The translations under genes and the position numbers were made by a program. DNA of 64,000 bases, taken from the NCBI RefSeq assembly GCF_988242995.1, contig NZ_OZ547043.1. One strand, 5' to 3'. This document shows, one piece after another, positions 598 through 15,628 of this stretch. Numbering within the stretch: the first letter of the stretch is position 1; each line of letters opens with the position of its first letter. The notes below the pieces were generated by a model. That model made no database searches and was not told the origin of the DNA. It was given only the letters and a program-made list of their open reading frames with translations.

Positions 598-753
598 TTC
601 AAGCTCCGGGGATTTGCCTAAACAGATTTAAATATCATTTCTATTATCCGCAACTGGCATTTGTGTTCATATCGAGAACGGCGTAATAGTATGACTTGTA
701 TTGGTTATCATCAATGGTCTAATATCTATCACAGTGTTAAGTTAAGGTTTACA

Positions 754-1680
754 ATGATGAAAATAGAGCCTTCAATTTTGCCTTCTCTTGCCTGGTTTGC
801 GCTGATTGTTCGTGCCGGCAGTTTTTCCAGAGCCGCTTCTGAAATGGGTATTACGCGGGCCGCATTGTCCCAGAATTTAAAATCTCTTGAGGAACGTCTT
901 AACACCAAGCTGATATACCGTACGACCCGCAATATGTCGCTTACTGAGGAAGGACAGCGTCTGTATGAAGTGCTGGTGTCGGCTTTGGGGCAAATTGATG
1001 ATGCTTTGAAAGATGTTGGTGATACCCAACTTGAACCTACAGGCCTGTTGAGAATAAATTCCTCCCGTGTTGCAGCACGGATGCTTGTTGAGCCTCATAT
1101 TGGCGAGTTTCTTACTCGTTACCCCAAAACAAAGATAGAACTCATTATGGATGACGGTTTATCTAACATTATTGCGGACGGCTGTGATGTGGGCATACGT
1201 CTTGAGCAAGGACTGGATGAGCATATGACTGCCGTTCCTGTTTCTCCGCTTATTAAACTGGTTACTGTGGCATCGCCAGATTATTTAAAAGAACACGGTA
1301 TTCCTGAAACTCCTCAGGAACTGAGTAACCATAATTGCCTTCGGTTGCGGCATAAAAGTAGCGGTGCACTCTCTGCATGGGTGTTTTCTAATGTTGTGGG
1401 GGGTAATGAAGAGTTCGAAATAGAGGTTTCAGGTAAGTATATTTCTAATGATGACGAAAGCATGATACGAATGGCGCTGAATGGAACGGGTATCATTCAA
1501 CATCTGGATTTTGCAATCGCTGAACATATCAATGCGGGCAAGTTACAGCCGATTCTTGAGGATTGGGCCGTTTCATTTCCTGGATTTTATATATATGTTT
1601 CATCACGGGTGAGAATGCCCTCTAAAGTTCGTGCTTTTATTGATTTTATGGTGGAGAAAAGAGTAAAAATAGAAAGTTAA
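754..1680 (+). CDS. LysR-family transcriptional regulator
   Basis: ORF 661..1680; N-terminal HTH signature (AWFALIVRAGSFSRAASEMGITRAALSQNLKSLEERL) and LysR substrate-binding domain. Start chosen at MMKIEP; upstream ATGs at 661/691 are possible. Confidence 0.7.
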   Translation: MMKIEPSILPSLAWFALIVRAGSFSRAASEMGITRAALSQNLKSLEERLNTKLIYRTTRNMSLTEEGQRLYEVLVSALGQIDDALKDVGDTQLEPTGLLRINSSRVAARMLVEPHIGEFLTRYPKTKIELIMDDGLSNIIADGCDVGIRLEQGLDEHMTAVPVSPLIKLVTVASPDYLKEHGIPETPQELSNHNCLRLRHKSSGALSAWVFSNVVGGNEEFEIEVSGKYISNDDESMIRMALNGTGIIQHLDFAIAEHINAGKLQPILEDWAVSFPGFYIYVSSRVRMPSKVRAFIDFMVEKRVKIES

Positions 1681-1820
1681 TGATGTGTGTCAGAATATCG
1701 GTAAGAAGAATGGCGCAATCGTGAGGATACGTTTATTCATAATAAATCTCCTGAAAGTTTAGAATTATTTTCGATACAGCCAGATTATCATTGTTACTAA
1801 TAATGTGGTTAAAATAATAG

Positions 1821-4687
<2,867 letters not shown>

Positions 4688-5236
4688 TTATCGTTCATGA
4701 GAAGCATAACGTAAAGGGAAAAGCTCGATTAGACGGCAGGATTTGTCAGGGGTTATGAACGAAATTCATAAATCTGCTTAAGTGTTGCGATGAGTCGTGC
4801 AAGTTCGATATCCCTGCAATTCACAGTCTGATGAAGGAAAATGAATATCCATAAAAAATATATCGGTTTATCCTGGCGTATATACCTACTTCGACGTATT
4901 TCCAATAGTTGTTAATTAAAGGCAGGCCATTATTATTCACTCTGAATAATGAATTATTCACTGTCCGCAGAGTAAAAATATAACTTAGGTATCTATTTAA
5001 TAACTTGCACAAAAAGCTAAATTTTTACCCATAAATAAAAATATAATCCCGCGCCCAACCACCTGATGAGTGGCTACAGACACTGGATATATTAGGTGGC
5101 GGTGTACTTTCTTACATAAAGGTATTTCCTTTTCTGCGGAAAAGGAAATCGGGGATTTCCCGGTTTTTCTGACAAGCAGACGCCACTATTTGTGTCTGCC
5201 TATGTTCGTTAATTCGTTCATCAGGAAATTATCTCA

Positions 5237-8200
5237 ATGTCACGTTATAAAACAGGTCATAAACAACCACGATTTCGTTATTCAGTTCTGGCCCGCTGCG
5301 TGGCGTGGGCAAATATCTCTGTTCAGGTTCTTTTCCCACTCGCTGTCACCTTTACCCCAGTAATGGCGGCACGCGCGCAGCATGCGGTTCAGCCACGGTT
5401 GAGCATGGAAAATACTACGGTAGCTGCTGATAATAATGTGGAAAAAAATGTCGCGTCGTTTGCCGCAAATGCCGGGACATTTTTAAGCAGTCAGCCAGAT
5501 AGCGATGCGACACGTAACTTTATTACCGGAATGGCCACAGCTAAAGCTAACCAGGAAATACAGGAGTGGCTCGGGAAATATGGTACTGCGCGCGTCAAAC
5601 TGAATGTCGATAAAGATTTCTCGCTGAAGGATTCTTCGATGGAAATGCTTTATCCGATTTATGATACGCCGACAAATATGTTGTTCACTCAGGGGGCAAT
5701 ACATCGTACCGACGAGCGTACTCAGTCAAATATTGGTTTTGGCTGGCGTCATTTTTCAGAAAATGACTGGATGGCGGGGGTGAATACTTTTATCGATCAT
5801 GATTTATCCCGTAGTCATACCCGCATTGGTGTTGGTGCGGAATACTGGCGTGATTATTTGAAACTGAGCGCCAATGGTTATATCCGGGCTTCTGGCTGGA
5901 AAAAATCGCCGGATGTTGAGGATTATCAGGAACGCCCGGCGAATGGCTGGGATATTCGTGCTGAGGGCTATTTACCCGCCTGGCCGCAGCTTGGCGCAAG
6001 CCTGATGTATGAACAGTATTATGGCGATGAAGTCGGGCTGTTTGGTAAAGATAAACGCCAGAAAGATCCACATGCGATTACCGCTGAAGTGAATTACACG
6101 CCAGTGCCTCTTCTGACCCTGAGTGCTGGGCATAAGCAGGGCAAGAGTGGTGAGAATGACACTCGCTTTGGCCTGGAAGTTAATTATCGGATTGGCGAAC
6201 CTCTGGAAAAACAACTCGATACAGACAGCATTCGCGAGCGTCGAATGCTGGCAGGCAGCCGCTATGACCTGGTTGAGCGTAATAACAATATCGTTCTTGA
6301 GTATCGCAAATCTGAAGTGATCCGTATTGCTCTGCCTGAGCGTATTGAAGGCAAGGGCGGCCAGACGGTTTCCCTGGGGCTTGTGGTCAGCAAAGCAACT
6401 CACGGTCTGAAAAATGTGCAATGGGAAGCGCCGTCTTTGCTGGCCGCAGGCGGAAAAATTACGGGGCAGGGCAATCAGTGGCAAGTGACGCTCCCGGCTT
6501 ATCAGGCAGGCAAAGACAATTATTATGCGGTTTCAGCGATTGCCTACGATAACAAAGGCAATGCCTCGAAACGTGTGCAGACAGAAGTGGTTATTAGCGG
6601 AGCTGGTATGAGCGCCGATCGTACGGCGTTAACGCTTGACGGTCAGAGCCGTATTCAAATGCTTGCTAACGGTAATGAGCAAAAGCCGCTGGTGCTGTCT
6701 CTGCGCGACGCCGAGGGTCAGCCAGTCACGGGCATGAAAGATCAGATCAAGACTGAACTAACTTTCAAACCGGCTGGAAATATTGTGACTCGTTCTCTGA
6801 AGGCCACTAAATCACAGGCAAAGCCAACACTGGGTGAGTTCACCGAAACTGAAGCAGGGGTGTATCAGTCTGTCTTTACTACCGGAACGCAGTCAGGTGA
6901 GGCAACGATTACTGTTAGCGTTGATGACATGAGCAAAACTGTCACTGCAGAACTGCGGGCCACGATGATGGATGTGGCAAACTCCACCCTGAGCGCTAAC
7001 GAGCCGTCAGGTGATGTGGTTGCTGATGGTCAGCAAGCCTACACGCTGACACTGACAGCGGTGGACTCCGAGGGTAATCCGGTGACGGGAGAAGCCAGCC
7101 GCCTGCGACTTGTTCCGCAAGACACTAATGGTGTAACCGTTGGTGCCATTTCGGAAATAAAACCAGGGGTTTACAGCGCCACGGTTTCTTCGACCCGTGC
7201 CGGAAACGTTGTTGTGCGTGCCTTCAGCGAGCAGTATCAGCTGGGCACATTACAACAAACGCTGAAGTTTGTTGCAGGGCCGCTTGATGCAGCACATTCG
7301 TCCATCACCCTGAATCCTGATAAACCGGTGGTTGGCGGTACAGTTACGGCAATCTGGACGGCAAAAGATGCCTATGACAACCCTGTGACCAGCCTCACGC
7401 CGGAAGCGCCGTCATTAGCGGGGGCTGCGGCTGTAGGTTCTACAGCATCTGGCTGGACAAATAATGGTGATGGGACGTGGACTGCGCAGATTACTCTCGG
7501 CTCTACGGCGGGTGAATTAGAAGTTATGCCGAAGCTAAATGGACAGGATGCGGCAGCAAACGCGGCAAAAGTAACCGTGGTGGCTGATGCGTTATCTTCA
7601 AACCAGTCGAAAGTCTCTGTCGTAAAAGATCACGTAAAAGCCGGCGAAAGCACAACCGTGACGCTGGTGGCGAAAGATGCGCATGGCAACGCTATCAGTG
7701 GTCTTTCGTTGTCGGCAAGTTTGACGGGGACCGCCTCTGAAGGGGCGACTATTTCCAGTTGGACCGAAAAAGGTGACGGTTCCTATGTTGCTACGTTGAC
7801 TACAGGCGGAAAGACGGGCGAGCTTCGCGTCATGCCTCTCTTCAATGGCCAGCCAGCAGCCACCGAAGCCGCGCAGTTGACGGTCATCGCTGGAGAGATG
7901 TCATCAGCTAACTCTACGCTTGTTGCGGACAATAAGGCTCCGGTCGTCAAAACGACGACGGAACTCACCTTCACCGTGAAGGATGCGTACGGGAACCCGG
8001 TCACCGGGCTGAAGCCAGATGCACCAGTGTTTAGCGGTGCCGCCAGCACGGGGAGTGAGCGTCCTTCAGCAGGAAACTGGACAGAGAAAGGTAATGGGGT
8101 CTACGTGTCGACCTTAACGCTGGGATCTGCCGCGGGTCAGTTGTCTGTGATGCCACGCGTGAACGGCCTAAATGCCGTTGCTCAGCCACTGGTGCTGAAT

Positions 8201-9490
8201 GTTGCAGGCGACGCTTCCCGGGCAGTGATCAGTGATATGGCGGTGAAGGTGAATAACCAACTGGCAAATGGACAGTCTGCTAACCAGATAACCCTGACCG
8301 TCGTGGACAGCTATGGTAACCCGTTGCAGGGGCAAGAAGTTACGCTGACTTTACCGCAGGGTGTGACCAGCAAGACGGGGAATACGGTAACAACCAATAC
8401 GGCAGGTAAAGCTGACATTGAGCTGATGTCAACGGTTGCCGGGGAACTTGAGATCGAGGCCGCGGTGAAAAACTCTCAGAAGACGGTCACGGTGAAATTC
8501 AACGCGGATGCCAGCACCGGTCAGGCGAGCCTGGAGGTAGACGCCGCTGCTCAAAAAGTGGCAAACGGCAAAGATGCCTTTACGCTGACGGCGACCGTTG
8601 AGGATAAAAACGGTAACCCTGTTCCAGGCACTCTGGTGACCTTTAATCTGCCCCGAGGTGTCAAGCCGCTTACTGGCGATAATGTCTGGGTGAAAGCCAA
8701 CGATGAGGGGAAAGCAGAGTTGCAGGTGGTTTCCGTGACTGCCGGAACCTATGAGATCACGGCGTCGGCAGGAAATGACCAGCCTTCGGATGCGCAGACT
8801 ATAACGTTTGTGGCCGATAAGGCGACCGCAACCGTCTCCGGTATTGAGGTGATTGGCAACTATGCACTGGCGGATGGCAAAGCCAAACAGACGTATAAAG
8901 TTACGGTGACTGATGCCAATAACAACCTGTTGAAAGATAGCGAGGTGACGCTGACTGCCAGCCCGGCAAATTTAGCTCTGGATCCCGATGGGACGGCGAA
9001 AACTAATGAGCAAGGGCAGGCTATTTTCACCGCCACGACCACTGTCGCAGCGAAATATACACTCACGGCGAAAGTGGAACAGGCCAACGGTCAGGAATCG
9101 ACGAAAACTGCTGAATCTAAATTCGTCGCGGATGATAAAAACGCGGTGCTCGCCGCATCATCTGATGTGCAATCGCTGGTGGCGGATGGGAAATCGACTG
9201 CGAAGCTGGAGGTGACCCTGATGTCGGCAAATAACCCCGTTGGCGGAAATATGTGGGTCGACATTCAGACGCCGGAAGGGGTGACGGAGAAGGATTATCA
9301 GTTCCTGCCGTCGAAAAATGACCATTTCGTGAGCGGAAAAATCACGCGTACATTTAGTACCAACAAGCCAGGTGTCTATACGTTCACATTTAACGCCCTG
9401 ACGTATGGCGGGTACGAAATGAAGCCAGTGACGGTGACCATAACCGCGGTGGATGCCGATACGGCAAAGGGCGAGGTGGCGATGAAATAA
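5237..9490 (+). CDS. eaeH: intimin/invasin-family inverse-autotransporter adhesin with repeated bacterial Ig-like (Big) domains (EaeH/FdeC), full length
   Basis: 1417-aa uninterrupted ORF; N-terminal beta-barrel region followed by about ten ~100-aa repeats carrying T(L)T..VDSYGNPV.G-type Big_1 motifs. Confidence 0.85.
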   Translation: MSRYKTGHKQPRFRYSVLARCVAWANISVQVLFPLAVTFTPVMAARAQHAVQPRLSMENTTVAADNNVEKNVASFAANAGTFLSSQPDSDATRNFITGMATAKANQEIQEWLGKYGTARVKLNVDKDFSLKDSSMEMLYPIYDTPTNMLFTQGAIHRTDERTQSNIGFGWRHFSENDWMAGVNTFIDHDLSRSHTRIGVGAEYWRDYLKLSANGYIRASGWKKSPDVEDYQERPANGWDIRAEGYLPAWPQLGASLMYEQYYGDEVGLFGKDKRQKDPHAITAEVNYTPVPLLTLSAGHKQGKSGENDTRFGLEVNYRIGEPLEKQLDTDSIRERRMLAGSRYDLVERNNNIVLEYRKSEVIRIALPERIEGKGGQTVSLGLVVSKATHGLKNVQWEAPSLLAAGGKITGQGNQWQVTLPAYQAGKDNYYAVSAIAYDNKGNASKRVQTEVVISGAGMSADRTALTLDGQSRIQMLANGNEQKPLVLSLRDAEGQPVTGMKDQIKTELTFKPAGNIVTRSLKATKSQAKPTLGEFTETEAGVYQSVFTTGTQSGEATITVSVDDMSKTVTAELRATMMDVANSTLSANEPSGDVVADGQQAYTLTLTAVDSEGNPVTGEASRLRLVPQDTNGVTVGAISEIKPGVYSATVSSTRAGNVVVRAFSEQYQLGTLQQTLKFVAGPLDAAHSSITLNPDKPVVGGTVTAIWTAKDAYDNPVTSLTPEAPSLAGAAAVGSTASGWTNNGDGTWTAQITLGSTAGELEVMPKLNGQDAAANAAKVTVVADALSSNQSKVSVVKDHVKAGESTTVTLVAKDAHGNAISGLSLSASLTGTASEGATISSWTEKGDGSYVATLTTGGKTGELRVMPLFNGQPAATEAAQLTVIAGEMSSANSTLVADNKAPVVKTTTELTFTVKDAYGNPVTGLKPDAPVFSGAASTGSERPSAGNWTEKGNGVYVSTLTLGSAAGQLSVMPRVNGLNAVAQPLVLNVAGDASRAVISDMAVKVNNQLANGQSANQITLTVVDSYGNPLQGQEVTLTLPQGVTSKTGNTVTTNTAGKADIELMSTVAGELEIEAAVKNSQKTVTVKFNADASTGQASLEVDAAAQKVANGKDAFTLTATVEDKNGNPVPGTLVTFNLPRGVKPLTGDNVWVKANDEGKAELQVVSVTAGTYEITASAGNDQPSDAQTITFVADKATATVSGIEVIGNYALADGKAKQTYKVTVTDANNNLLKDSEVTLTASPANLALDPDGTAKTNEQGQAIFTATTTVAAKYTLTAKVEQANGQESTKTAESKFVADDKNAVLAASSDVQSLVADGKSTAKLEVTLMSANNPVGGNMWVDIQTPEGVTEKDYQFLPSKNDHFVSGKITRTFSTNKPGVYTFTFNALTYGGYEMKPVTVTITAVDADTAKGEVAMK

Positions 9491-9523
9491 TATTAAGAAT
9501 ATGAAAGTAACATTCTAATAAAC

Positions 9524-9556
9524 AATAATGGCGTTGACATCTTCAACGCCATTATT
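9524..9556. terminator. 14-bp perfect inverted repeat between convergent eaeH and ykgA; likely bidirectional terminator
   Basis: aataatggcgttga-catct-tcaacgccattatt, T-rich on both flanks. Confidence 0.45.
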
Positions 9557-9610
9557 TATTGAATTGCCTGACAGTAGTCTCGTTATATATTCATTTAGAT
9601 ATAGCGACAA

Positions 9611-10516
9611 CTAAACCGGACGAACGGGGATAAAAATTTCGCAAACAATGTTATTGCTATCAATTTCGACGAAATTTTCATTGTAATAAAACCGCTCAAT
9701 ATCACTGCCGTTCACTCTGGCTAACCCCCTGGCAGGTAATTCCATCAGATAGAGGTTTCGCGCCCATTCAGGGTAGTGCTCCCACTCACCTTCATAGCGG
9801 AAAGAGGCATACAGTCCTCGGTTAATTGTCCACTCTTTCGACATCTCTGAATCGGTTTGTTTGCATACCGTACCGGCAAAAGTTTCAACTGTGAGCAAAT
9901 CGACCGATTTTGTTGACGGTTCGAATGTGGAGACGAAATAGATATCCGTCTTAAAACTCTTCATACATCTGGCTAAATGATGACGTCGCAGTTTGACTTC
10001 TTCATCCGGTGATTTATTCGACACTTCAATGTCATATTTAAATGAATCGCCAAAAATAGGTGTCTCAGGAAAGTTGACTAATTTACACTCCGTCTTTTGC
10101 TGTTGACGTATTAAAAAAGAAGGGAAGATATTTGCGAGATCCCAATAATCACGGTGGCGGTATTCACGGGGAGAGCAGCCGAATAACTTTTTAAATTCGC
10201 GGCTGAATGACTGCTGTGAATCAAAATGCAAAGAGAGTGCAATATCAAGCATAGATTTCGCGGTGAGCCGGACAAGAATGGCGGCACGACAAAGCCTTCG
10301 TTTGCGAATGTATTCTCCCAAAGGCACATGCATGAAATTTCGGAACAGAAGCTGGATGTTGCGTCTGCTGTAGCCAGATTTCTGTGCGATATCTTCGATT
10401 GAAATAGGGTGTTCGAGATTGCACTCAATCCACTCCAGGAGCTGCTGTAGAATCTTCTGCCTGATCATCACATTCTCCGTTAATTCTTTGTCATATCGCA
10501 CATTTTCGTTATGCAC
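9611..10516 (-). CDS. ykgA: AraC-family regulator with C-terminal GyrI-like effector domain (Rob-like architecture)
   Basis: 301-aa ORF; AraC HTH signatures (IEDIAQKSGYSRRNIQLLFRNF..., SQQSFSREFKKLFGCSPREYR). Start may be the internal MIRQKIL. Gene name from recalled K-12 neighbourhood. Confidence 0.65.
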   Translation of the reverse strand: MHNENVRYDKELTENVMIRQKILQQLLEWIECNLEHPISIEDIAQKSGYSRRNIQLLFRNFMHVPLGEYIRKRRLCRAAILVRLTAKSMLDIALSLHFDSQQSFSREFKKLFGCSPREYRHRDYWDLANIFPSFLIRQQQKTECKLVNFPETPIFGDSFKYDIEVSNKSPDEEVKLRRHHLARCMKSFKTDIYFVSTFEPSTKSVDLLTVETFAGTVCKQTDSEMSKEWTINRGLYASFRYEGEWEHYPEWARNLYLMELPARGLARVNGSDIERFYYNENFVEIDSNNIVCEIFIPVRPV

Positions 10517-10716
10517 TGGGCCCTAAGTGTATCAAAAACAGCAAGGGCGAAGGCAAAAGCACTGGTAGCGTCTGCTTCGTTGTCCCCTAAAATAGAGAGG
10601 TTTCAGTCCTACATTATTAATGAATTTTTTGCATAAGTGATATCAAAATCCACATACTAATTTGAGGTTACGTTTTAACGTAGACTCATTGTTCATGCCT
10701 AATGGAGGGACTGACA

Positions 10717-11586
10717 GTGGAATTTTCCGTATTAAGTAACAATCTGAAAATGCCGATGATGGGATTTGGTGTTTTTCAGGTTACCGATAAAAACGTGTGC
10801 AAACAGTCAGTGTTGAACGCTATCCGCACGGGTTATCGACTCATCGACACTGCAGCGGTATACGGTAATGAAGATGCCGTCGGTGAAGCCGTTCGTGAAG
10901 CTATATCTGAAGGTTTATGTACCCGAGATGAGTTATTTATAACGTCTAAATTGTGGGTGCAGGATATGTTGAATCAGGATACGGCAAAAGCAGGTATTGA
11001 AGCGTCATTAAAAAAATCGGAACTAGAATACTTCGACCTCTATTTATTGCACCAGGCTATGCGCGATTATTTCAGTGCGTGGCGTGCACTCGAAGATGCC
11101 TATGAAGAGGGCAAATTAAAAGCAATTGGGGTTTCCAATTTCTATCCTCATGTTCTGGCGAACTTTTGTGAAACGGTAAGAGTTAAACCGATGGTCAACC
11201 AGGTCGAGTTGCATCCCTATTTTGCCCAACCAGAGGCGCTGGCAACCATGAAGTATTATAACGTGCAGCCTGAAGCATGGGCTCCGTTAGGTGGTGGACG
11301 ACATAAACCCTTTGAAAATAATCTGCTTCAGAGTATTGCAGATGCCCATCAAAAATCGATTTCTCAGGTCATTCTGCGTTGGAATATTCAACGGGGAGTG
11401 GTCGTTATTCCGAAATCGACACATCAACAGCGTATCGAAGAAAATTTTGCTATCTGGGATTTCTCACTGACAGAGAAAGAAATGGCACAAATTAGCTCGC
11501 TTGATTTGGGTTATGTTGGGGAGTCGGTAAAACATTTTAATCCTGAATTTGTTCGTGGTTGTCTTGCTGTAAAAATACATGATTGA
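10717..11586 (+). CDS. aldo-keto reductase (DkgA-like)
   Basis: ORF 10702..11586; GGAGGG at 10704-10709 then in-frame GTG at 10717; MPMMGFGVFQ...[14 protein letters not shown]...IGVSNF motifs. Confidence 0.7.
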   Translation: MEFSVLSNNLKMPMMGFGVFQVTDKNVCKQSVLNAIRTGYRLIDTAAVYGNEDAVGEAVREAISEGLCTRDELFITSKLWVQDMLNQDTAKAGIEASLKKSELEYFDLYLLHQAMRDYFSAWRALEDAYEEGKLKAIGVSNFYPHVLANFCETVRVKPMVNQVELHPYFAQPEALATMKYYNVQPEAWAPLGGGRHKPFENNLLQSIADAHQKSISQVILRWNIQRGVVVIPKSTHQQRIEENFAIWDFSLTEKEMAQISSLDLGYVGESVKHFNPEFVRGCLAVKIHD

Positions 11587-11745
11587 TATTAATCATGTAT
11601 TTTACCTGAGACGACAAGAATCTTTTAACAGGGGAGTGATATTGATCTTCACTCTGTCATGTCTCCGGTAATATGGCGTCAGGCTTCATCATCAGAAAGG
11701 GGGCCTGACGCCTGCAAAAGTGAACAACAGACAGTGTTCGGATTA

Positions 11746-12339
11746 TCAATATTCAGTTTTTAGCGTTGAACTGGATTCATTACTGCGTTGTTTAAGAATT
11801 TCCCGCGCCGAATCTGCCATTATCATGACAGCACCTGCCAGCATCAGAGTATCTTTCAATACCAGGCGACCAGCACCGGATAAATAAGGGAAACCATGAT
11901 GAGCGTCACCCAATGCGGGTACCCATGCCTCCGGGGTGGTGATTAAAAATGAGAGTGTTACCAACGGTGTGGTAAATGCCATCAGCCCTCCCAATAAACC
12001 TAACCAGCGATTGACAGGATTAGCCAAAACCAGCAGAGCAATAATCACCTCCACGACGCCAAGACCGTTGGAAAAACCATAGGTATTATTGGCCGATTGC
12101 CATGCCCTTGCTTCTGGTTTGTATTCGCCTTCGTGAGTCAGATACTGTTTATAGTCTTCCGGGTGTTCATAAAAGAACGACATTAGTGGACTGTTTGCGA
12201 CGAATGGTGTAATGCTGTCTGCCTCGTAAGGGACAAACTTTAATAACCCAATCCACATAAAAACAATCGCAATACTCAGACGAATCAATGTCAGGCCAAT
12301 TTTATCTCCCCGACTTAACAGGTGCAGGTATTTCTCCAT
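11746..12339 (-). CDS. rclC: inner-membrane protein of the reactive-chlorine resistance operon
   Basis: ORF 11746..12348; start set to MEKYLHLLSRG; multiple hydrophobic segments; position matches recalled K-12 rclC/ykgB. Confidence 0.8.
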   Translation of the reverse strand: MEKYLHLLSRGDKIGLTLIRLSIAIVFMWIGLLKFVPYEADSITPFVANSPLMSFFYEHPEDYKQYLTHEGEYKPEARAWQSANNTYGFSNGLGVVEVIIALLVLANPVNRWLGLLGGLMAFTTPLVTLSFLITTPEAWVPALGDAHHGFPYLSGAGRLVLKDTLMLAGAVMIMADSAREILKQRSNESSSTLKTEY

Positions 12340-12350
12340 TGTAAACATCC

Positions 12351-12587
12351 TTATTTATACAATACTGCTGTTGCGGTTGAATTATTATCAATTCGCATCG
12401 ATGTGACTTTCCAGGATGAAGCATTATATTTTCTAGCCATATCAGCAATGGCATCCTCAAGAACTGTCGGTGATGCTGATACTGACGAGACGCTGATATG
12501 TTTCAGAATTATTTTATCATCTGCATTGGTGGAAAATGCCATAACGCCAGATAATAGTGTTGCAAATAAAACAGGTTTTTTAAACAT
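12351..12587 (-). CDS. rclB: small periplasmic DUF1471-type protein
   Basis: ORF 12351..12602; signal peptide MFKKPVLFATLLSGVMAFSTNA; start set to MFKKP. Confidence 0.7.
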   Translation of the reverse strand: MFKKPVLFATLLSGVMAFSTNADDKIILKHISVSSVSASPTVLEDAIADMARKYNASSWKVTSMRIDNNSTATAVLYK

Positions 12588-12695
12588 ATAAAATACCATC
12601 AATGAAGTGATTAAGAAGTTATATAATAACAGGGAATTAATAAGATTCTTTTCTCTGAGACGCCAGAATATTTGTCCTGGCGTCTGATTTTGGGT

Positions 12696-14021
12696 TTATT
12701 TGACTAATGAAAATAGATCATTGAGTGATTCGCTCATCGACGGATGAGTAAATATCTGATCGCGTAATATGCTATAAGGCAGCCCGGCATCCATCACCAT
12801 TTTCACTATATTGATCATCTCGTGGGAGTCAACACACAGCAGTGATGCCCCTAATATACGTTGGGTTTTATTATCAACAATCGCTTTTAATACCCCACGG
12901 GTATCGTTCATCACTCTGGCGCGCGGAATTGCAGCTACAGGCAATGTCACCACCTGAATATCAGCACCACTCTCTCTGGCCTGTTCTTCTGTCATACCAA
13001 CCCTGGACAGGGGCGGTGTCATAAATACGGAATAAGGCACATTTTTCCGATCATCAGTACTACGTTTGCCTTCACCCAGTAACTCATCACGTACAATGCG
13101 GTAATCATCCAGTGAAATATAAGTAAATTGCAGCCCGCCGGTAACATCTCCCATCGCCCAAATATTGTCTGCGGTGGTATGTAATCGCTTGTCAACGACA
13201 ATTGCCCCGCGCTCGTTTACTGCGATACCGGCATTTTCTGGATGTAACGAAGCGGTAGCCGGTTGACGACCGGAAGCTATTAACAGTGCATCCACCGCCA
13301 GTTGGGCGTGCTCGCTATGCACTTGCACTTGATTTTCATGGTGACTGATTCGCTCCACATGGGCATTGAGGATAATATCGACGCCCTGATCGCGTAAAAT
13401 CGTCGCGATATTATCAGCAATATCCCGATCTTCCCGAGGCAAAAACAGCGAAGCTGCTTCTAAAATGGTTACCTTGCTGCCAAAATTAGCGAACATAGAG
13501 GCGAACTCAACGCCAATATATCCGCCGCCCAAAATACCTAAATGCCCAGGCAATTCTTTTAGATTAAGTAATCCGGTGCTGTCATATACTCCTGGCGTGG
13601 TGGTAATTCCAGGAATTGGCGGAACCACGGTTTGTGCACCGGTATTAATAAAAATTTTCTCGCCATGAATTTCCAGATTTCCCTCAGGCCGATGAACACG
13701 CAGGCTATGATTATTGATAAACTCCGCCTGGCCGTCGATCACGTCGATATTGGGCATATCCGCAAGATTATGAAAATTCTTATTACGTAAAAAATTAACC
13801 ACTTCATTTTTACGCTGTATGGCACGGACAAAATCTGTGTGCTGCTGTGCGTCATGAACCAATGTTTTGGTTGGGATGCAGCCGATATTAATACAGGTCC
13901 CGCCATACATTGCATTTGATTGTTCGATGAGAGCCACACGCCAACCTGCTTTTGCCAGCGTGACGGCTAATGTTTTTCCAGCCTTGCCAAAACCAATAAT
14001 AACTGCCTGATATTTATTCAT
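12696..14021 (-). CDS. rclA: pyridine nucleotide-disulfide oxidoreductase (FAD/NAD-binding)
   Basis: ORF 12696..14048; GFGKAG dinucleotide motif and GGTCINIGCIPTK redox-active CxxxxC motif; start set to MNKYQAVIIG. Confidence 0.85.
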   Translation of the reverse strand: MNKYQAVIIGFGKAGKTLAVTLAKAGWRVALIEQSNAMYGGTCINIGCIPTKTLVHDAQQHTDFVRAIQRKNEVVNFLRNKNFHNLADMPNIDVIDGQAEFINNHSLRVHRPEGNLEIHGEKIFINTGAQTVVPPIPGITTTPGVYDSTGLLNLKELPGHLGILGGGYIGVEFASMFANFGSKVTILEAASLFLPREDRDIADNIATILRDQGVDIILNAHVERISHHENQVQVHSEHAQLAVDALLIASGRQPATASLHPENAGIAVNERGAIVVDKRLHTTADNIWAMGDVTGGLQFTYISLDDYRIVRDELLGEGKRSTDDRKNVPYSVFMTPPLSRVGMTEEQARESGADIQVVTLPVAAIPRARVMNDTRGVLKAIVDNKTQRILGASLLCVDSHEMINIVKMVMDAGLPYSILRDQIFTHPSMSESLNDLFSLVK

Positions 14022-14247
14022 GATGATTTCCTGTCGAAACGCGTTCATTTGACATCATGACTATAGACGCAAAAGAGCAAATAACATTTCTTCACAACGC
14101 TTGATATTTTGTCTTATCGTCTGGTATTTTCTTTTTCATAATCAGAATCACAAAACAAAAATCATGATTAACCATTTGATGGTATTAGATTAATTATTGA
14201 CTAAGATTGTTGGTGTTTGTAATCAAAAAACTACTCAGGAGTCTGAT

Positions 14248-15102
14248 ATGGATGCTCTTAGCCGTTTGTTGATGCTTAACGCTCCACAAGGAACGATCGA
14301 TAAGAATTGCGTGTTAGGAAGTGACTGGCAACTTCCACATGGTGCCGGGGAATTGTCGGTTATTCGTTGGCATGCGTTAACGCAAGGAGCGGCGAAGCTG
14401 GAAATGCCGACGGGAGAGATTTTTACATTACGCCCGGGAAATGTGGTCCTGCTACCACAAAATTCAGCTCATCGCCTGAGTCATGTCGATAATGAATCGA
14501 CCTGTATTGTCTGTGGCACTCTTCGGCTGCAACATTCGGCGCGTTATTTTTTAACGTCTTTGCCGGAAACGCTGTTTGTAGCACCAGTGAACCATAGCGT
14601 GGAATATAACTGGCTGAGGGAGGCGATCCCGTTTTTACAACAGGAATCCAGATCGGCAATGCCGGGAGTGGATGCTCTGTGTAGCCAGATCTGCGCTACA
14701 TTCTTTACCCTCGCGGTGCGTGAGTGGATTGCACAGGTTAATACTGAGAAAAACATTCTCAGTTTGCTTCTGCATCCACGTCTTGGTGCGGTAATACAGC
14801 AAATGCTGGAAATGCCAGGACACGCCTGGACCGTCGAATCGCTGGCCAGCATCGCCCACATGTCCCGGGCAAGTTTTGCCCAGCTTTTCCGTGATGTTTC
14901 CGGAACCACGCCGCTAGCTGTATTAACAAAGTTGCGTCTACAAATAGCGGCCCAGATGTTTTCCCGGGAAATGCTCCCTGTTGTGGTGATCGCTGTGTCA
15001 GTAGGCTATGCCAGTGAATCATCTTTTCACAAGGCGTTTGTCCGCGAGTTTGGTTGTACCCCGGGAGAATATCGGGAAAGGGTCAGACAGCTTGCACCCT
15101 GA
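14248..15102 (+). CDS. rclR: AraC-family redox-sensing activator, divergent from rclABC
   Basis: ORF 14197..15102; C-terminal AraC HTH (SESSFHKAFVREFGCTPGEYR); start set to MDALSRLL. Confidence 0.8.
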   Translation: MDALSRLLMLNAPQGTIDKNCVLGSDWQLPHGAGELSVIRWHALTQGAAKLEMPTGEIFTLRPGNVVLLPQNSAHRLSHVDNESTCIVCGTLRLQHSARYFLTSLPETLFVAPVNHSVEYNWLREAIPFLQQESRSAMPGVDALCSQICATFFTLAVREWIAQVNTEKNILSLLLHPRLGAVIQQMLEMPGHAWTVESLASIAHMSRASFAQLFRDVSGTTPLAVLTKLRLQIAAQMFSREMLPVVVIAVSVGYASESSFHKAFVREFGCTPGEYRERVRQLAP

Positions 15103-15628
15103 ATAAAACCGCCAGAAATCAGGGCAAAGATAATCCGCATTCCGGGAGTTGTGAGCCTTTCAACTATTTCTATTTCCAACGGTGGTTTGGGCTTTATATA
15201 TTTTTTCTGATGGACTCTAGCTCAGTTTTTAAATAAAAATGCAAACTAAATTGCTTCAATTAAATAAAATGCCGATTATTACTTGATACGTAATTATTGT
15301 TGGTGATTTTGTTTGTACACCATCAGTGTATATCTCAATAACCCCTGAATAAGTAGCACTGAATAGGTATAAGGGATGTAGCCTTTTTAAATGGATTTCT
15401 TATGCCAAAAATGATCGTCGATTTCCCTATAAAATGTGAGCGATGCCGAAAGAAATAAAATTAGTTATTGCATTTGAAGTTTGGATGAAAGATTATCATT
15501 TGTCATACAAATGAGGGGTGGTATGTTGCTAGCCAATTAAAAAAGAACGCCATATTTATTGATGATTGATCCCCCGGAAGGGGGGAACCATCGGGCATAA
15601 ATGGGCATGAAGTAATGGAGTATTAGTT

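What the first reader, a model, noticed from the sequence alone, without database searches (positions are those of the whole stretch)
9611..11586. Intact AraC/GyrI-like regulator (ykgA) and adjacent intact aldo-keto reductase
Both ORFs are full length and convergent with eaeH across a clean bidirectional terminator. From memory the K-12 counterparts are affected by an IS3 insertion and a pseudogene (ykgQ), so this window may preserve the ancestral functional pair: a Rob-like ligand-sensing regulator with a reductase.
Basis: partly seen in the sequence, partly recalled or inferred. Interest (0 to 1): 0.3.

Follow-up and report, generated by a model that had tools for sequence, protein, structure and literature searches.

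The report
Intact ykgA regulator beside reductase
This E. coli window keeps working copies of a Rob-like regulator gene (ykgA) and a neighbouring aldo-keto reductase gene that are broken in laboratory strain K-12; this is the common, already annotated wild-type state, and comparative genomics shows the regulator travels with the adhesin gene fdeC, not with the reductase.

Summary
ykgA (9611-10468, minus strand; 285 aa; dual-HTH plus GyrI-like domains) and an aldo-keto reductase (10717-11586, plus strand; 289 aa; Asp/Tyr/Lys/His tetrad intact) are full length and under purifying selection. ykgA ends tail-to-tail with fdeC/eaeH across a strong hairpin.

MG1655 carries eaeH', IS3A, ykgA' and ykgQ' as pseudogenes. 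An IS3-linked deletion removes window 6113-9807, and two internal deletions remove most of the reductase.

The intact state is ordinary. About 54% of 5,426 complete E. coli genomes hold the full reductase segment, both exact proteins are already in public databases, and the fdeC cluster with its regulators and reductases was published in 2012.

The "ancestral functional pair" idea is only partly supported. Reductase orthologues (81-85% identity) in six other settings, including E. marmotae, never sit beside a Rob-like gene. YkgA orthologues in four of five other contexts lie tail-to-tail with an FdeC-like adhesin and never with the reductase. E. marmotae lacks fdeC and ykgA as one block.

Function remains untested.

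The parts
5237..9490 (+). fdeC/eaeH, a full-length inverse-autotransporter adhesin (1417 aa). It is the conserved tail-to-tail partner of ykgA.
   Evidence: ORF. RefSeq names the orthologue FdeC. FdeC-like genes lie convergent with YkgA orthologues in E69, Salmonella L020, L021 and L025.
4778..10613 (.). The fdeC-ykgA block, which also includes the ykgA promoter-proximal half of the intergenic region. It is present in E. coli, E. whittamii and E1V33 and absent as one piece from E. marmotae.
   Evidence: blastn of the window against E. marmotae L019: window 1736-4777 is joined almost directly to window 10614-11591.
9524..9556 (.). Hairpin between the stop codons of fdeC and ykgA (13-14 bp stem, 5-nt loop) with A/T-rich flanks. 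It is a probable bidirectional intrinsic terminator.
   Evidence: The terminator scan called it on the minus strand. Folding gave -19.2 and -21.1 kcal/mol with z -6.2 and -6.5 on the two strands.
9611..10468 (-). ykgA, an intact Rob paralogue (285 aa) with an N-terminal dual-HTH AraC-type domain and a C-terminal GyrI-like domain. The longest ORF extends to the GTG at 10516.
   Evidence: Pfam. NCBIfam RobA scores 194 bits against a cut-off of 380. Collinear alignment to Rob structures 7VWY and 1D5Y. dN/dS 0.13-0.15 against sister species. The exact sequence is found on 494 public contigs.
10469..10716 (.). Divergent intergenic region between ykgA and the reductase. It is a composite: the left part belongs with ykgA and the right part (from 10614) belongs with the reductase.
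   Evidence: Alignment A1, the E. marmotae junction at 10614 and the Salmonella and Klebsiella matches starting at about 10614.
10524..10537 (+). Box A, TAAGTGTATCAAAA, 56 bp upstream of the ykgA ATG. It is a candidate operator or promoter element.
   Evidence: One of only two matches in the 64-kb window. Invariant in E. coli, E. whittamii and E1V33. Present with 2 substitutions at the same place upstream of ykgA in E69.
10614..10716 (+). Reductase-linked upstream region (promoter/operator and leader) that accompanies the reductase gene in genomes without ykgA.
   Evidence: Conserved upstream of the reductase in E. marmotae, Salmonella salamae and Klebsiella.
10634..10648 (+). Box B, TAAGTGATATCAAAA, 69 bp upstream of the reductase GTG. 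It is a near copy of box A.
   Evidence: Exact in the Escherichia genomes that have ykgA adjacent. In E. marmotae it has 2 substitutions, and in Klebsiella and Salmonella the aligned stretch is less similar.
10717..11586 (+). Intact aldo-keto reductase (289 aa) with catalytic Asp44, Tyr49, Lys78 and His112. It is the counterpart of the K-12 pseudogene ykgQ. The longest ORF starts at the ATG at 10702.
   Evidence: Pfam 147.7 bits. NCBIfam DkgA scores 236.6 bits against a cut-off of 425. Best solved relative is 1VP5 at E 7e-86. Tetrad positions. dN/dS 0.06-0.07. The exact sequence is found on 93 public contigs.
11572..11603 (.). AT-rich perfect palindrome overlapping the reductase stop codon.
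   Evidence: Self-match. Folding gave -13.4 and -14.1 kcal/mol with z about -5.
11675..11712 (.). GC-rich hairpin between the convergent reductase and rclC genes.
   Evidence: Folding gave -25.2 and -21.2 kcal/mol with z -5.0 and -4.0.

Best explanation
Shown: the region carries the undamaged wild-type E. coli versions of two genes that are pseudogenes in K-12. These are ykgA, a paralogue of the ligand-responsive activator Rob, and an aldo-keto reductase, which K-12 retains only as the remnant ykgQ. K-12 lost them by an IS3-associated 3.7-kb deletion and two internal deletions.

Shown: the two genes are neighbours by juxtaposition, not an old module. ykgA is one half of a two-gene unit with fdeC, arranged tail-to-tail around a shared hairpin. 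That unit occurs at different chromosomal sites in different enterobacteria. In the E. coli, E. whittamii and E1V33 lineage it lies next to a reductase gene that carries its own conserved upstream region and circulates on its own, including on plasmids.

Inferred: YkgA binds a small hydrophobic or electrophilic ligand through its GyrI-like domain and activates transcription as Rob does. It probably recognises a site different from the marbox, because two of the three helix-3 base-contact residues differ.

Inferred: its likely targets are its own promoter (box A), the adjacent reductase promoter in Escherichia (box B) and possibly fdeC. The reductase is most likely an NADPH-dependent carbonyl or aldehyde detoxifying enzyme.
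For: - ORFs and domains.
- K-12 pseudogenes and breakpoints.
- Distribution in E. coli: 2,935 of 5,426 genomes hold the full reductase segment and about 2,106 hold only the 49-bp K-12-type piece. About 4,701 genomes match the ykgA 3' end.
- Purifying selection: dN/dS is 0.06-0.07 for the reductase and 0.13-0.15 for ykgA, with 0.05 in the HTH half and about 0.2 in the GyrI-like half.
- Reductase orthologues at 81-85% identity have no Rob-like neighbour in Klebsiella, Vibrio, Salmonella salamae, Enterobacter or Kluyvera. They also occur on true plasmids.
- E. marmotae has the reductase without fdeC-ykgA, with the junction at window 10614.
- The reductase upstream element is conserved without ykgA.
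- YkgA orthologues at 66-81% identity lie convergent with FdeC-like genes in four unrelated contexts: E69, L020, L021 and L025.
- Helix 3 reads SRRNIQLLF where Rob has SKWHLQRMF, and this difference is conserved across YkgA-type proteins.
- No marbox at 2 or fewer mismatches lies in the intergenic region.
- Boxes A and B.
Against: - No expression, binding or enzyme data exist for either protein. [quoted passage not shown]
- fdeC and ykgA are convergent, so they share no promoter, and no box-like site lies upstream of fdeC in the window.
- One YkgA orthologue, L024, has no FdeC neighbour. It sits in an IS-riddled region.
- The sample of contexts outside Escherichia is small: five for ykgA and five for the reductase.
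- Whether E. marmotae lost fdeC-ykgA or the E. coli lineage gained it was not resolved, because E. albertii and E. fergusonii were not examined.
- Boxes A and B were noticed by eye before being tested, so the statistics are post hoc.
Confidence: 0.75

Rival explanations
1. One reading: YkgA and the reductase are an ancestral regulator-target pair. YkgA senses a ligand and switches on the divergently transcribed reductase.
For: - The two genes are divergent across a 248-bp shared region.
- The same 14-15 bp box lies upstream of both genes. It occurs nowhere else in the 64 kb and is invariant in E. whittamii and E1V33 despite synonymous divergence of about 0.5.
- Box B matches box A exactly only in genomes that have ykgA adjacent. 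It has 2 substitutions in E. marmotae, and the aligned stretch is less similar in Klebsiella and Salmonella.
- From general knowledge, AraC-type regulators next to aldehyde reductases are a known arrangement, for example YqhC with yqhD-dkgA.
Against: - The pairing is absent from all six other reductase contexts examined, counting E. marmotae, and from all five other ykgA contexts.
- The reductase upstream region is conserved in genomes that lack ykgA, so something else must act there.
- ykgA remains intact in the AKR-deleted E. coli strains examined, and the deletion itself is carried by about 39% of complete genomes.
- The spacing between the two boxes is not conserved: 110 bp in E. coli against 257 bp in E. 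whittamii.
Confidence: 0.3
2. YkgA is the dedicated local regulator of the adhesin gene fdeC, relaying a host or environmental small-molecule cue, and its position beside the reductase is incidental.
For: - fdeC-like and ykgA-like genes are co-inherited tail-to-tail in the E. coli-type locus and in four further unrelated contexts.
- They are absent together in E. marmotae.
- The direct specific regulators of fdeC are still described as unknown (PMC11657066).
- FdeC expression is conditional (abstract of PMC3324786).
- A box-like sequence with 2 substitutions lies upstream of fdeC in Salmonella L020, matched or beaten by 4 of 300 shuffles.
Against: - The genes are convergent and share no promoter.
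- The fdeC upstream region in the window has no box-like site; the best match has 5 mismatches, which every one of 300 shuffles equalled or bettered.
- Co-inheritance could simply reflect joint transfer of neighbouring genes.
- Per the title of Easton et al. 2014, which I saw only in a reference list, fdeC is regulated by H-NS and temperature, which does not require YkgA.
Confidence: 0.3
3. YkgA is a fourth member of the mar/sox/rob regulon activators. It would bind marboxes genome-wide to drive efflux and stress genes, with no special link to its neighbours.
For: - Full-length homology to Rob, and homology of the DNA-binding domain to SoxS, RamA and MarA.
- It is grouped with MarA, SoxS and Rob in the literature (PMC2064960).
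- The helix-6 motif FDSQQSFSREFKK is close to that of Rob.
Against: - Helix-3 residues equivalent to Rob W36 and R40 are Arg and Leu in all YkgA-type proteins examined.
- No marbox at 2 or fewer mismatches lies near either gene, and the window-wide count (19) equals chance (18.1).
- Scores are well below the RobA, SoxS and MarA family cut-offs.
Confidence: 0.1
4. The two ORFs are intact by chance in this strain but are decaying and non-functional, as in K-12.
For: Both genes have been lost repeatedly: the K-12 deletions, and the reductase deletion carried by about 39% of complete genomes.
Against: - dN/dS is well below 1 against species at synonymous divergence of about 0.5.
- The catalytic tetrad and both regulator domains are intact.
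- Ribosome-binding sites are present.
- Thousands of intact copies exist in public data.
Confidence: 0.03

Closest known systems
E. coli K-12 pseudogenes ykgA (b0300) and ykgQ (b4631), with eaeH (b0297) and IS3A
   Same: Same locus and orthologous DNA. Identity is 96-98% over the parts K-12 retains.
   Different: The genes are complete here. K-12 lacks window 6113-9807, which covers the 3' 3.4 kb of fdeC, the terminator and the last 66 codons of ykgA; IS3 takes its place. K-12 also lacks 10733-11317 and 11367-11457 of the reductase.
Rob (right origin-binding protein, PDB 1D5Y and 7VWY) of the MarA/SoxS/Rob group of AraC-family activators
   Same: Same two-domain architecture and length. The alignment is collinear over residues 5-283 (E about 5e-39), and the second recognition helix is conserved.
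   Different: YkgA is not Rob itself: 194 bits against the 380-bit RobA cut-off. Two of the three helix-3 base-contact positions differ (R36 and L40 where Rob has W36 and R40). No marbox lies nearby. The gene is linked to an adhesin gene.
The 'fdeC cluster' described by Nesta et al. 2012 (PMC3324786)
   Same: Same locus. [quoted passage not shown]
   Different: According to the passages I read, that paper assigned no roles to the neighbours.
DkgA/YqhE, B. subtilis YvgN/YtbE and Thermotoga TM1009 (PDB 1VP5), small monomeric aldo-keto reductases
   Same: Same fold family and length, with the catalytic Asp-Tyr-Lys-His tetrad aligned.
   Different: It scores below the DkgA and DkgB equivalog cut-offs. 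The substrate is unknown. It is unusually well conserved, at 81-85% identity from Escherichia to Vibrio.
YqhC with yqhD-dkgA, an AraC-type regulator divergent from aldehyde reductase genes (from general knowledge, not tested here)
   Different: Here the pairing is confined to one Escherichia lineage. The regulator has a GyrI-like sensor domain and a different conserved neighbour, fdeC.

Membership tests
AraC/XylS family, Rob-like two-domain subgroup | N-terminal AraC-type DNA-binding domain of about 100 aa with two helix-turn-helix motifs | tested here: met
   Pfam HTH_18 70.6 bits (cut-off 33.6) and HTH_AraC 59.7 bits (cut-off 26.6) over residues 43-122 of the 301-aa ORF.
AraC/XylS family, Rob-like two-domain subgroup | C-terminal GyrI-like small-molecule-binding domain | tested here: met
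   Pfam GyrI-like 44.7 bits (cut-off 26), covering profile positions 2-155 of 155. The domain aligns collinearly with the Rob C-terminal domain.
Rob itself (NCBIfam RobA_TF / PRK15121 equivalogs) | Score above the curated equivalog cut-off | tested here: not met
   194.4 bits against 380, and 172.7 bits against 426. YkgA is a paralogue, not Rob.
MarA/SoxS/Rob marbox-binding activators | Helix-3 base-contact residues (Rob W36, Q39, R40) conserved | tested here: not met
   YkgA has R36, Q39 and L40. The same residues occur in all Escherichia and Salmonella orthologues examined. That these positions contact bases is from published Rob and MarA structures (general knowledge).
MarA/SoxS/Rob marbox-binding activators | Marbox (AYNGCACNNWNNRYYAAAY) in the promoters it would control | tested here: not met
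   No match at 2 or fewer mismatches in 10469-10716. The window-wide count of 19 matches the chance expectation of 18.1.
MarA/SoxS/Rob marbox-binding activators | Ligand-dependent activation of transcription | not testable with these tools
   This needs reporter assays and ligand-binding experiments.
Aldo-keto reductase superfamily | Aldo_ket_red (TIM-barrel) domain over the full length | tested here: met
   Pfam 147.7 bits (cut-off 24). 1VP5 matches at E 7e-86 over residues 10-289.
Aldo-keto reductase superfamily | Catalytic tetrad Asp-Tyr-Lys-His | tested here: met
   Asp44, Tyr49, Lys78 and His112 in 289-aa numbering. They lie in motifs aligned with solved reductases.
DkgA / DkgB (2,5-didehydrogluconate reductases) | Score above the curated equivalog cut-off | tested here: not met
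   236.6 bits against 425 for DkgA, and 164.5 bits against 327 for DkgB.
Conserved divergent regulator-target gene pair | The pairing is kept across taxa that carry either gene | tested here: not met
   The pairing is present only in E. coli, E. whittamii and E1V33. It is absent in six other reductase contexts and five other ykgA contexts.
Conserved divergent regulator-target gene pair | Shared operator in the common intergenic region | tested here: inconclusive
   Boxes A and B are near-identical, unique in the 64 kb and invariant in Escherichia. The protein that binds them is unknown, and box B has relatives in genomes without ykgA.
Bidirectional intrinsic terminator | Stable hairpin followed by a U-tract on both strands | tested here: inconclusive
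   The hairpin is strong on both strands. The scan's T-tract rule is met on the minus strand only, and the plus-strand tail falls just below it.

The most novel reading that the evidence does not exclude
YkgA is the missing specific regulator of the FdeC adhesin. On this reading it is a Rob-like sensor that detects a host-derived small molecule, such as a bile salt or fatty acid, through its GyrI-like domain and relieves silencing of fdeC. It would have been transferred together with fdeC as a two-gene sense-and-stick unit among enterobacteria. In Escherichia it may additionally have recruited the neighbouring reductase through a copy of its own operator box.
Probability: 0.2. Interest if true: 0.5.

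Novelty: already known. Interest (0 to 1): 0.2.

Why it matters
As stated, the finding adds little. Intact ykgA and the reductase are the normal state in most E. coli, are annotated in RefSeq, and were drawn as part of the fdeC cluster in 2012.

It is a useful reminder that K-12 is a poor reference for this locus. Studies of YkgA done in K-12 used a truncated protein that lacks part of its sensor domain.

The one useful lead from this work is that ykgA is consistently linked to fdeC rather than to the reductase. FdeC is a vaccine-candidate adhesin whose inducing signal and direct regulators are unknown, so YkgA is a cheap and testable candidate.

Tried and rejected
- Marbox search (AYNGCACNNWNNRYYAAAY, up to 2 mismatches): nothing in the intergenic region, and the window-wide count equals chance.
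- Rfam scan of 9300-11900 at permissive E-values: only three sub-threshold chance hits, so there is no known riboswitch or leader.
- Sigma-70 promoter scan: no consensus promoter called inside 10469-10716, and the overall count is at the chance level.
- Search for boxes A/B upstream of fdeC in the window, and upstream of ykgA or fdeC in the distant orthologues L020, L021, L025, L022 and L023: not better than shuffles. The exceptions are weak hits in E69 (10 of 300 shuffles as good) and in the Salmonella fdeC upstream region (4 of 300).
- blastn of the ykgA upstream region against the Salmonella and L021 upstream regions: no significant similarity.
- The HTH plus GyrI-like gene 3.5 kb from the reductase in Salmonella salamae: not a YkgA orthologue, with no tblastn hit.
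- Plasmid hits for ykgA: these are mislabelled chromosomes, K-12 F-prime factors, or a 68-kb circular copy of the chromosomal locus, so there is no evidence that ykgA is plasmid-borne.
- Target-site duplications or repeats at the edges of the fdeC-ykgA block relative to E. marmotae: none seen by eye.
[quoted passage not shown] 2014 (FdeC regulation) are not held in the library and could not be read.
Full report
**1. The observation**

The window holds an ORF at 9611-10516 on the minus strand and one at 10702-11586 on the plus strand, as reported. The first matches Pfam HTH_18 and HTH_AraC plus GyrI-like. The second matches Aldo_ket_red. All scores are far above the curated cut-offs.

The probable true starts lie a little inside the longest ORFs:
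- For the regulator, the ATG at 10468 gives 285 aa. It follows a GGAG, it is the start RefSeq uses, and it matches the start of the Salmonella orthologue and of the Rob alignment.
- For the reductase, the GTG at 10717 gives 289 aa. It follows GGAGGG at ideal spacing and is conserved as the start codon in Salmonella, Klebsiella and Vibrio.

The regulator aligns collinearly with the Rob crystal and cryo-EM chains over residues 5-283 (E about 5e-39). The reductase aligns over nearly its whole length with solved small aldo-keto reductases (1VP5 at E 7e-86; E. coli DkgA 1MZR at E 2e-58). It keeps the Asp44, Tyr49, Lys78, His112 tetrad.

ykgA ends 120 bp from the stop codon of fdeC/eaeH (5237-9490). 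A 13-14 bp hairpin at 9524-9556 lies between them. It folds at -19 to -21 kcal/mol on either strand, about 6 standard deviations beyond shuffles. The terminator scan called it on the minus strand only. The reductase is divergent from ykgA and convergent with rclC, with two further hairpins in between.

**2. The K-12 comparison**

MG1655 annotates eaeH (b0297), ykgA (b0300) and ykgQ (b4631) as pseudogenes, with IS3A between eaeH' and ykgA'. RR1, a K-12 derivative, is the same.

Direct alignment places the IS3 junctions at window 6112 and 9808. IS3 therefore sits in place of 3.7 kb, comprising most of fdeC, the terminator and the last 66 codons of ykgA. It also shows that ykgQ is what remains after two internal deletions, window 10733-11317 and 11367-11457. 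The remnants prove that the K-12 state is derived.

**3. How common the intact state is**

| Class among 5,426 complete E. coli genomes | Count | Source |
|---|---|---|
| Hold some part of the 2.4-kb region | 5,074 | |
| Hold the full reductase segment that K-12 lacks | 2,935 (54%) | |
| Hold only the 49-bp K-12-type piece | about 2,106 (39%) | |
| Match the 3' end of ykgA that K-12 lost to IS3 | about 4,701 (87%) | |

Strains such as 1283, BL21 and TUM18781 have fdeC and ykgA intact but the reductase deleted. O157:H7, ATCC 25922 and SC418 have everything intact.

The exact window proteins already exist in public records, the regulator on 494 contigs and the reductase on 93. They are annotated only as 'helix-turn-helix domain-containing protein' and 'aldo/keto reductase'. 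Nesta et al. [quoted passage not shown]

The window therefore shows the ordinary wild-type arrangement, not a rare survival.

**4. Are the genes functional?**

Against E. whittamii and Escherichia sp. E1V33 (synonymous divergence about 0.5), dN/dS is 0.06-0.07 for the reductase and 0.13-0.15 for ykgA. Within ykgA it is 0.05 in the DNA-binding half and about 0.2 in the GyrI-like half. Both genes are clearly maintained by selection.

**5. Are they a pair?**

The reductase is very well conserved, at 81-85% identity in Klebsiella, Enterobacter, Kluyvera, Salmonella salamae, Vibrio and Marinomonas. It also occurs on genuine plasmids. In none of the five non-Escherichia contexts examined is a Rob-like gene adjacent:
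- Klebsiella has a LysR regulator, a hydrolase, an MFS transporter and then the reductase, on both chromosome and plasmid.
- Vibrio has the reductase alone, next to ATP synthase genes.
- Salmonella salamae has it beside an SDR gene and a TetR gene.
- Enterobacter has it after a LysR gene and an SDR gene.
- Kluyvera has it isolated among mobile-element genes.

E. marmotae has the reductase directly beside the two other aldo-keto reductase genes that the window carries at 2805-4672. Window 4778-10613, which holds fdeC, ykgA and the ykgA-proximal part of the intergenic region, is missing as one block.

Homology resumes at window 10614. That is also the left edge of a reductase-linked upstream element conserved in Salmonella salamae and Klebsiella. 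The reductase therefore brings its own control region, and that region predates its contact with ykgA.

Conversely, the nearest YkgA orthologues are each tail-to-tail with an FdeC-like inverse autotransporter, in four unrelated chromosomal settings and without the reductase:

| Orthologue | YkgA identity | FdeC-like identity | Context |
|---|---|---|---|
| 'E. coli' E69 | 81% | 56-68% | type II secretion genes |
| Salmonella enterica (L020) | 68% | 70% | HipA-like gene |
| L021 | 66% | 59-80% | DUF4440 gene |
| L025 | 66% | 47% | PrpR-like gene |

One further orthologue, L024 at 65%, sits in an IS-riddled region without FdeC. More distant relatives at 43-47% identity have neither neighbour.

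The conserved partner of ykgA is therefore fdeC, not the reductase.

**6. Evidence that still favours a ykgA-reductase link in Escherichia**

The motif TAAGTG(N)TATCAAAA occurs only twice in the 64-kb window. Site A is 56 bp upstream of ykgA (10524-10537) and site B is 69 bp upstream of the reductase (10634-10648). Shuffled sequence gives 0.6 hits even when 2 substitutions are allowed.

Both sites are invariant in E. coli, E. whittamii and E1V33, while the flanking bases vary. Site A persists with 2 substitutions upstream of ykgA in E69. Site B has 2 substitutions in E. marmotae, and the aligned stretch in Klebsiella and Salmonella is less similar.

This fits YkgA autoregulation plus recruitment of the reductase promoter in this lineage. 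Three cautions apply:
- The binding protein is unknown.
- The motif was noticed by eye before it was tested.
- The spacing between the sites is not conserved, because E. whittamii and E1V33 carry 147 extra bases between them.

**7. Likely mechanism (inferred)**

YkgA should act like Rob, as an activator with two helix-turn-helix motifs whose GyrI-like domain senses a small molecule. It probably does not read marboxes:
- The helix-3 positions equivalent to Rob W36 and R40 are Arg and Leu in every YkgA-type protein examined, while helix 6 is conserved.
- No marbox lies nearby.
- Scores are far below the RobA, SoxS and MarA family cut-offs.

The reductase is most plausibly an NADPH-dependent carbonyl or aldehyde reductase. 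This rests on its solved relatives and on the detoxification-type genes that accompany it elsewhere: other aldo-keto reductases, NmrA, zinc-type alcohol dehydrogenase, CMD, cupin, SDR and LysR genes.

No experiment bears on either protein. [quoted passage not shown] A 2024 study concludes that fdeC is controlled through unknown intermediate regulators (PMC11657066).

**8. Verdict**

The K-12 comparison is confirmed. The 'ancestral functional pair' reading is only partly supported.

The feature is already known and annotated, so interest is low. The modest new lead is the consistent fdeC-ykgA linkage, which makes YkgA a testable candidate regulator of the FdeC adhesin.

Noticed in passing
window 661-4672: Two LysR-type regulator genes (661-1680, 1839-2774) and two further aldo-keto reductase genes (2805-3794 of 329 aa; 3821-4672 of 283 aa, 47% identical to the reductase in the finding) lie left of fdeC. 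The 11-kb MG1655 stretch I fetched has no match left of window 4687. E. marmotae has the second LysR gene and both reductases directly next to the third reductase. The locus therefore carries three aldo-keto reductases that K-12 lacks or has lost.
   Followed up: partly
window about 11600-15430 (rclC, rclB, rclA, rclR): The reactive-chlorine resistance cluster rclRABC is absent at this position in E. whittamii and Escherichia sp. E1V33. There the reductase is followed by sequence homologous to window 15431 onward. The region is a patchwork of gene cassettes gained or lost independently.
   Followed up: partly
window 9611-10100 (GyrI-like half of ykgA) and the 3' end of fdeC: E. coli has two allele classes of the YkgA sensor domain. 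In strain 1283, which lacks the reductase, the HTH half has the same amino acid sequence as the window (dS 0.03). The GyrI-like half is divergent (dN 0.07, dS 0.27) and carries a 2-codon deletion shared with E1V33. About 1,494 genomes fall in the 80-90% identity class, for example BL21. O157 is mosaic at the extreme C-terminus. This suggests recombination breakpoints inside ykgA, next to the variable adhesin gene.
   Followed up: partly
between window 10554 and 10570; L006 4755-4901: E. whittamii and E1V33 carry 147 extra bases in the ykgA-reductase intergenic region, between boxes A and B. The segment folds at -32 kcal/mol and has no other copy in the window or in any fetched locus. Its origin is unknown.
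   Followed up: partly
window 10717-11586: The reductase is unusually conserved across distant Gammaproteobacteria, at 81% identity in Vibrio and Marinomonas. It occurs on Klebsiella, Salmonella and E. coli plasmids. Its G+C content is low (0.43, with GC3 0.39, against 0.50 for the window). Together these point to horizontal spread of an enzyme with a tightly constrained function.
   Followed up: partly
window 11020-11022 (codon 102 of the reductase): The window allele has Glu102 (KKSELEY) where every other Escherichia sequence compared has Gly. The position is variable in solved homologues, being Gln or Gly. The exact allele is found on 93 public contigs, so it is probably neutral.
   Followed up: partly
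window 11572-11603: A perfect 14-bp AT-rich palindrome overlaps the reductase stop codon. It is also present in K-12 next to the ykgQ remnant. A second, GC-rich hairpin lies at 11675-11712. Which of them terminates the reductase transcript and which the rclC transcript was not resolved.
   Followed up: partly
window 9400-11800: The closest complete genome over this stretch is the sediment isolate SC418, and it is the only record at 99% or more (99.0%). All other complete E. coli genomes are below 99%. The window therefore comes from a lineage that is thinly represented among finished genomes, although the exact proteins are common in draft assemblies.
   Followed up: no
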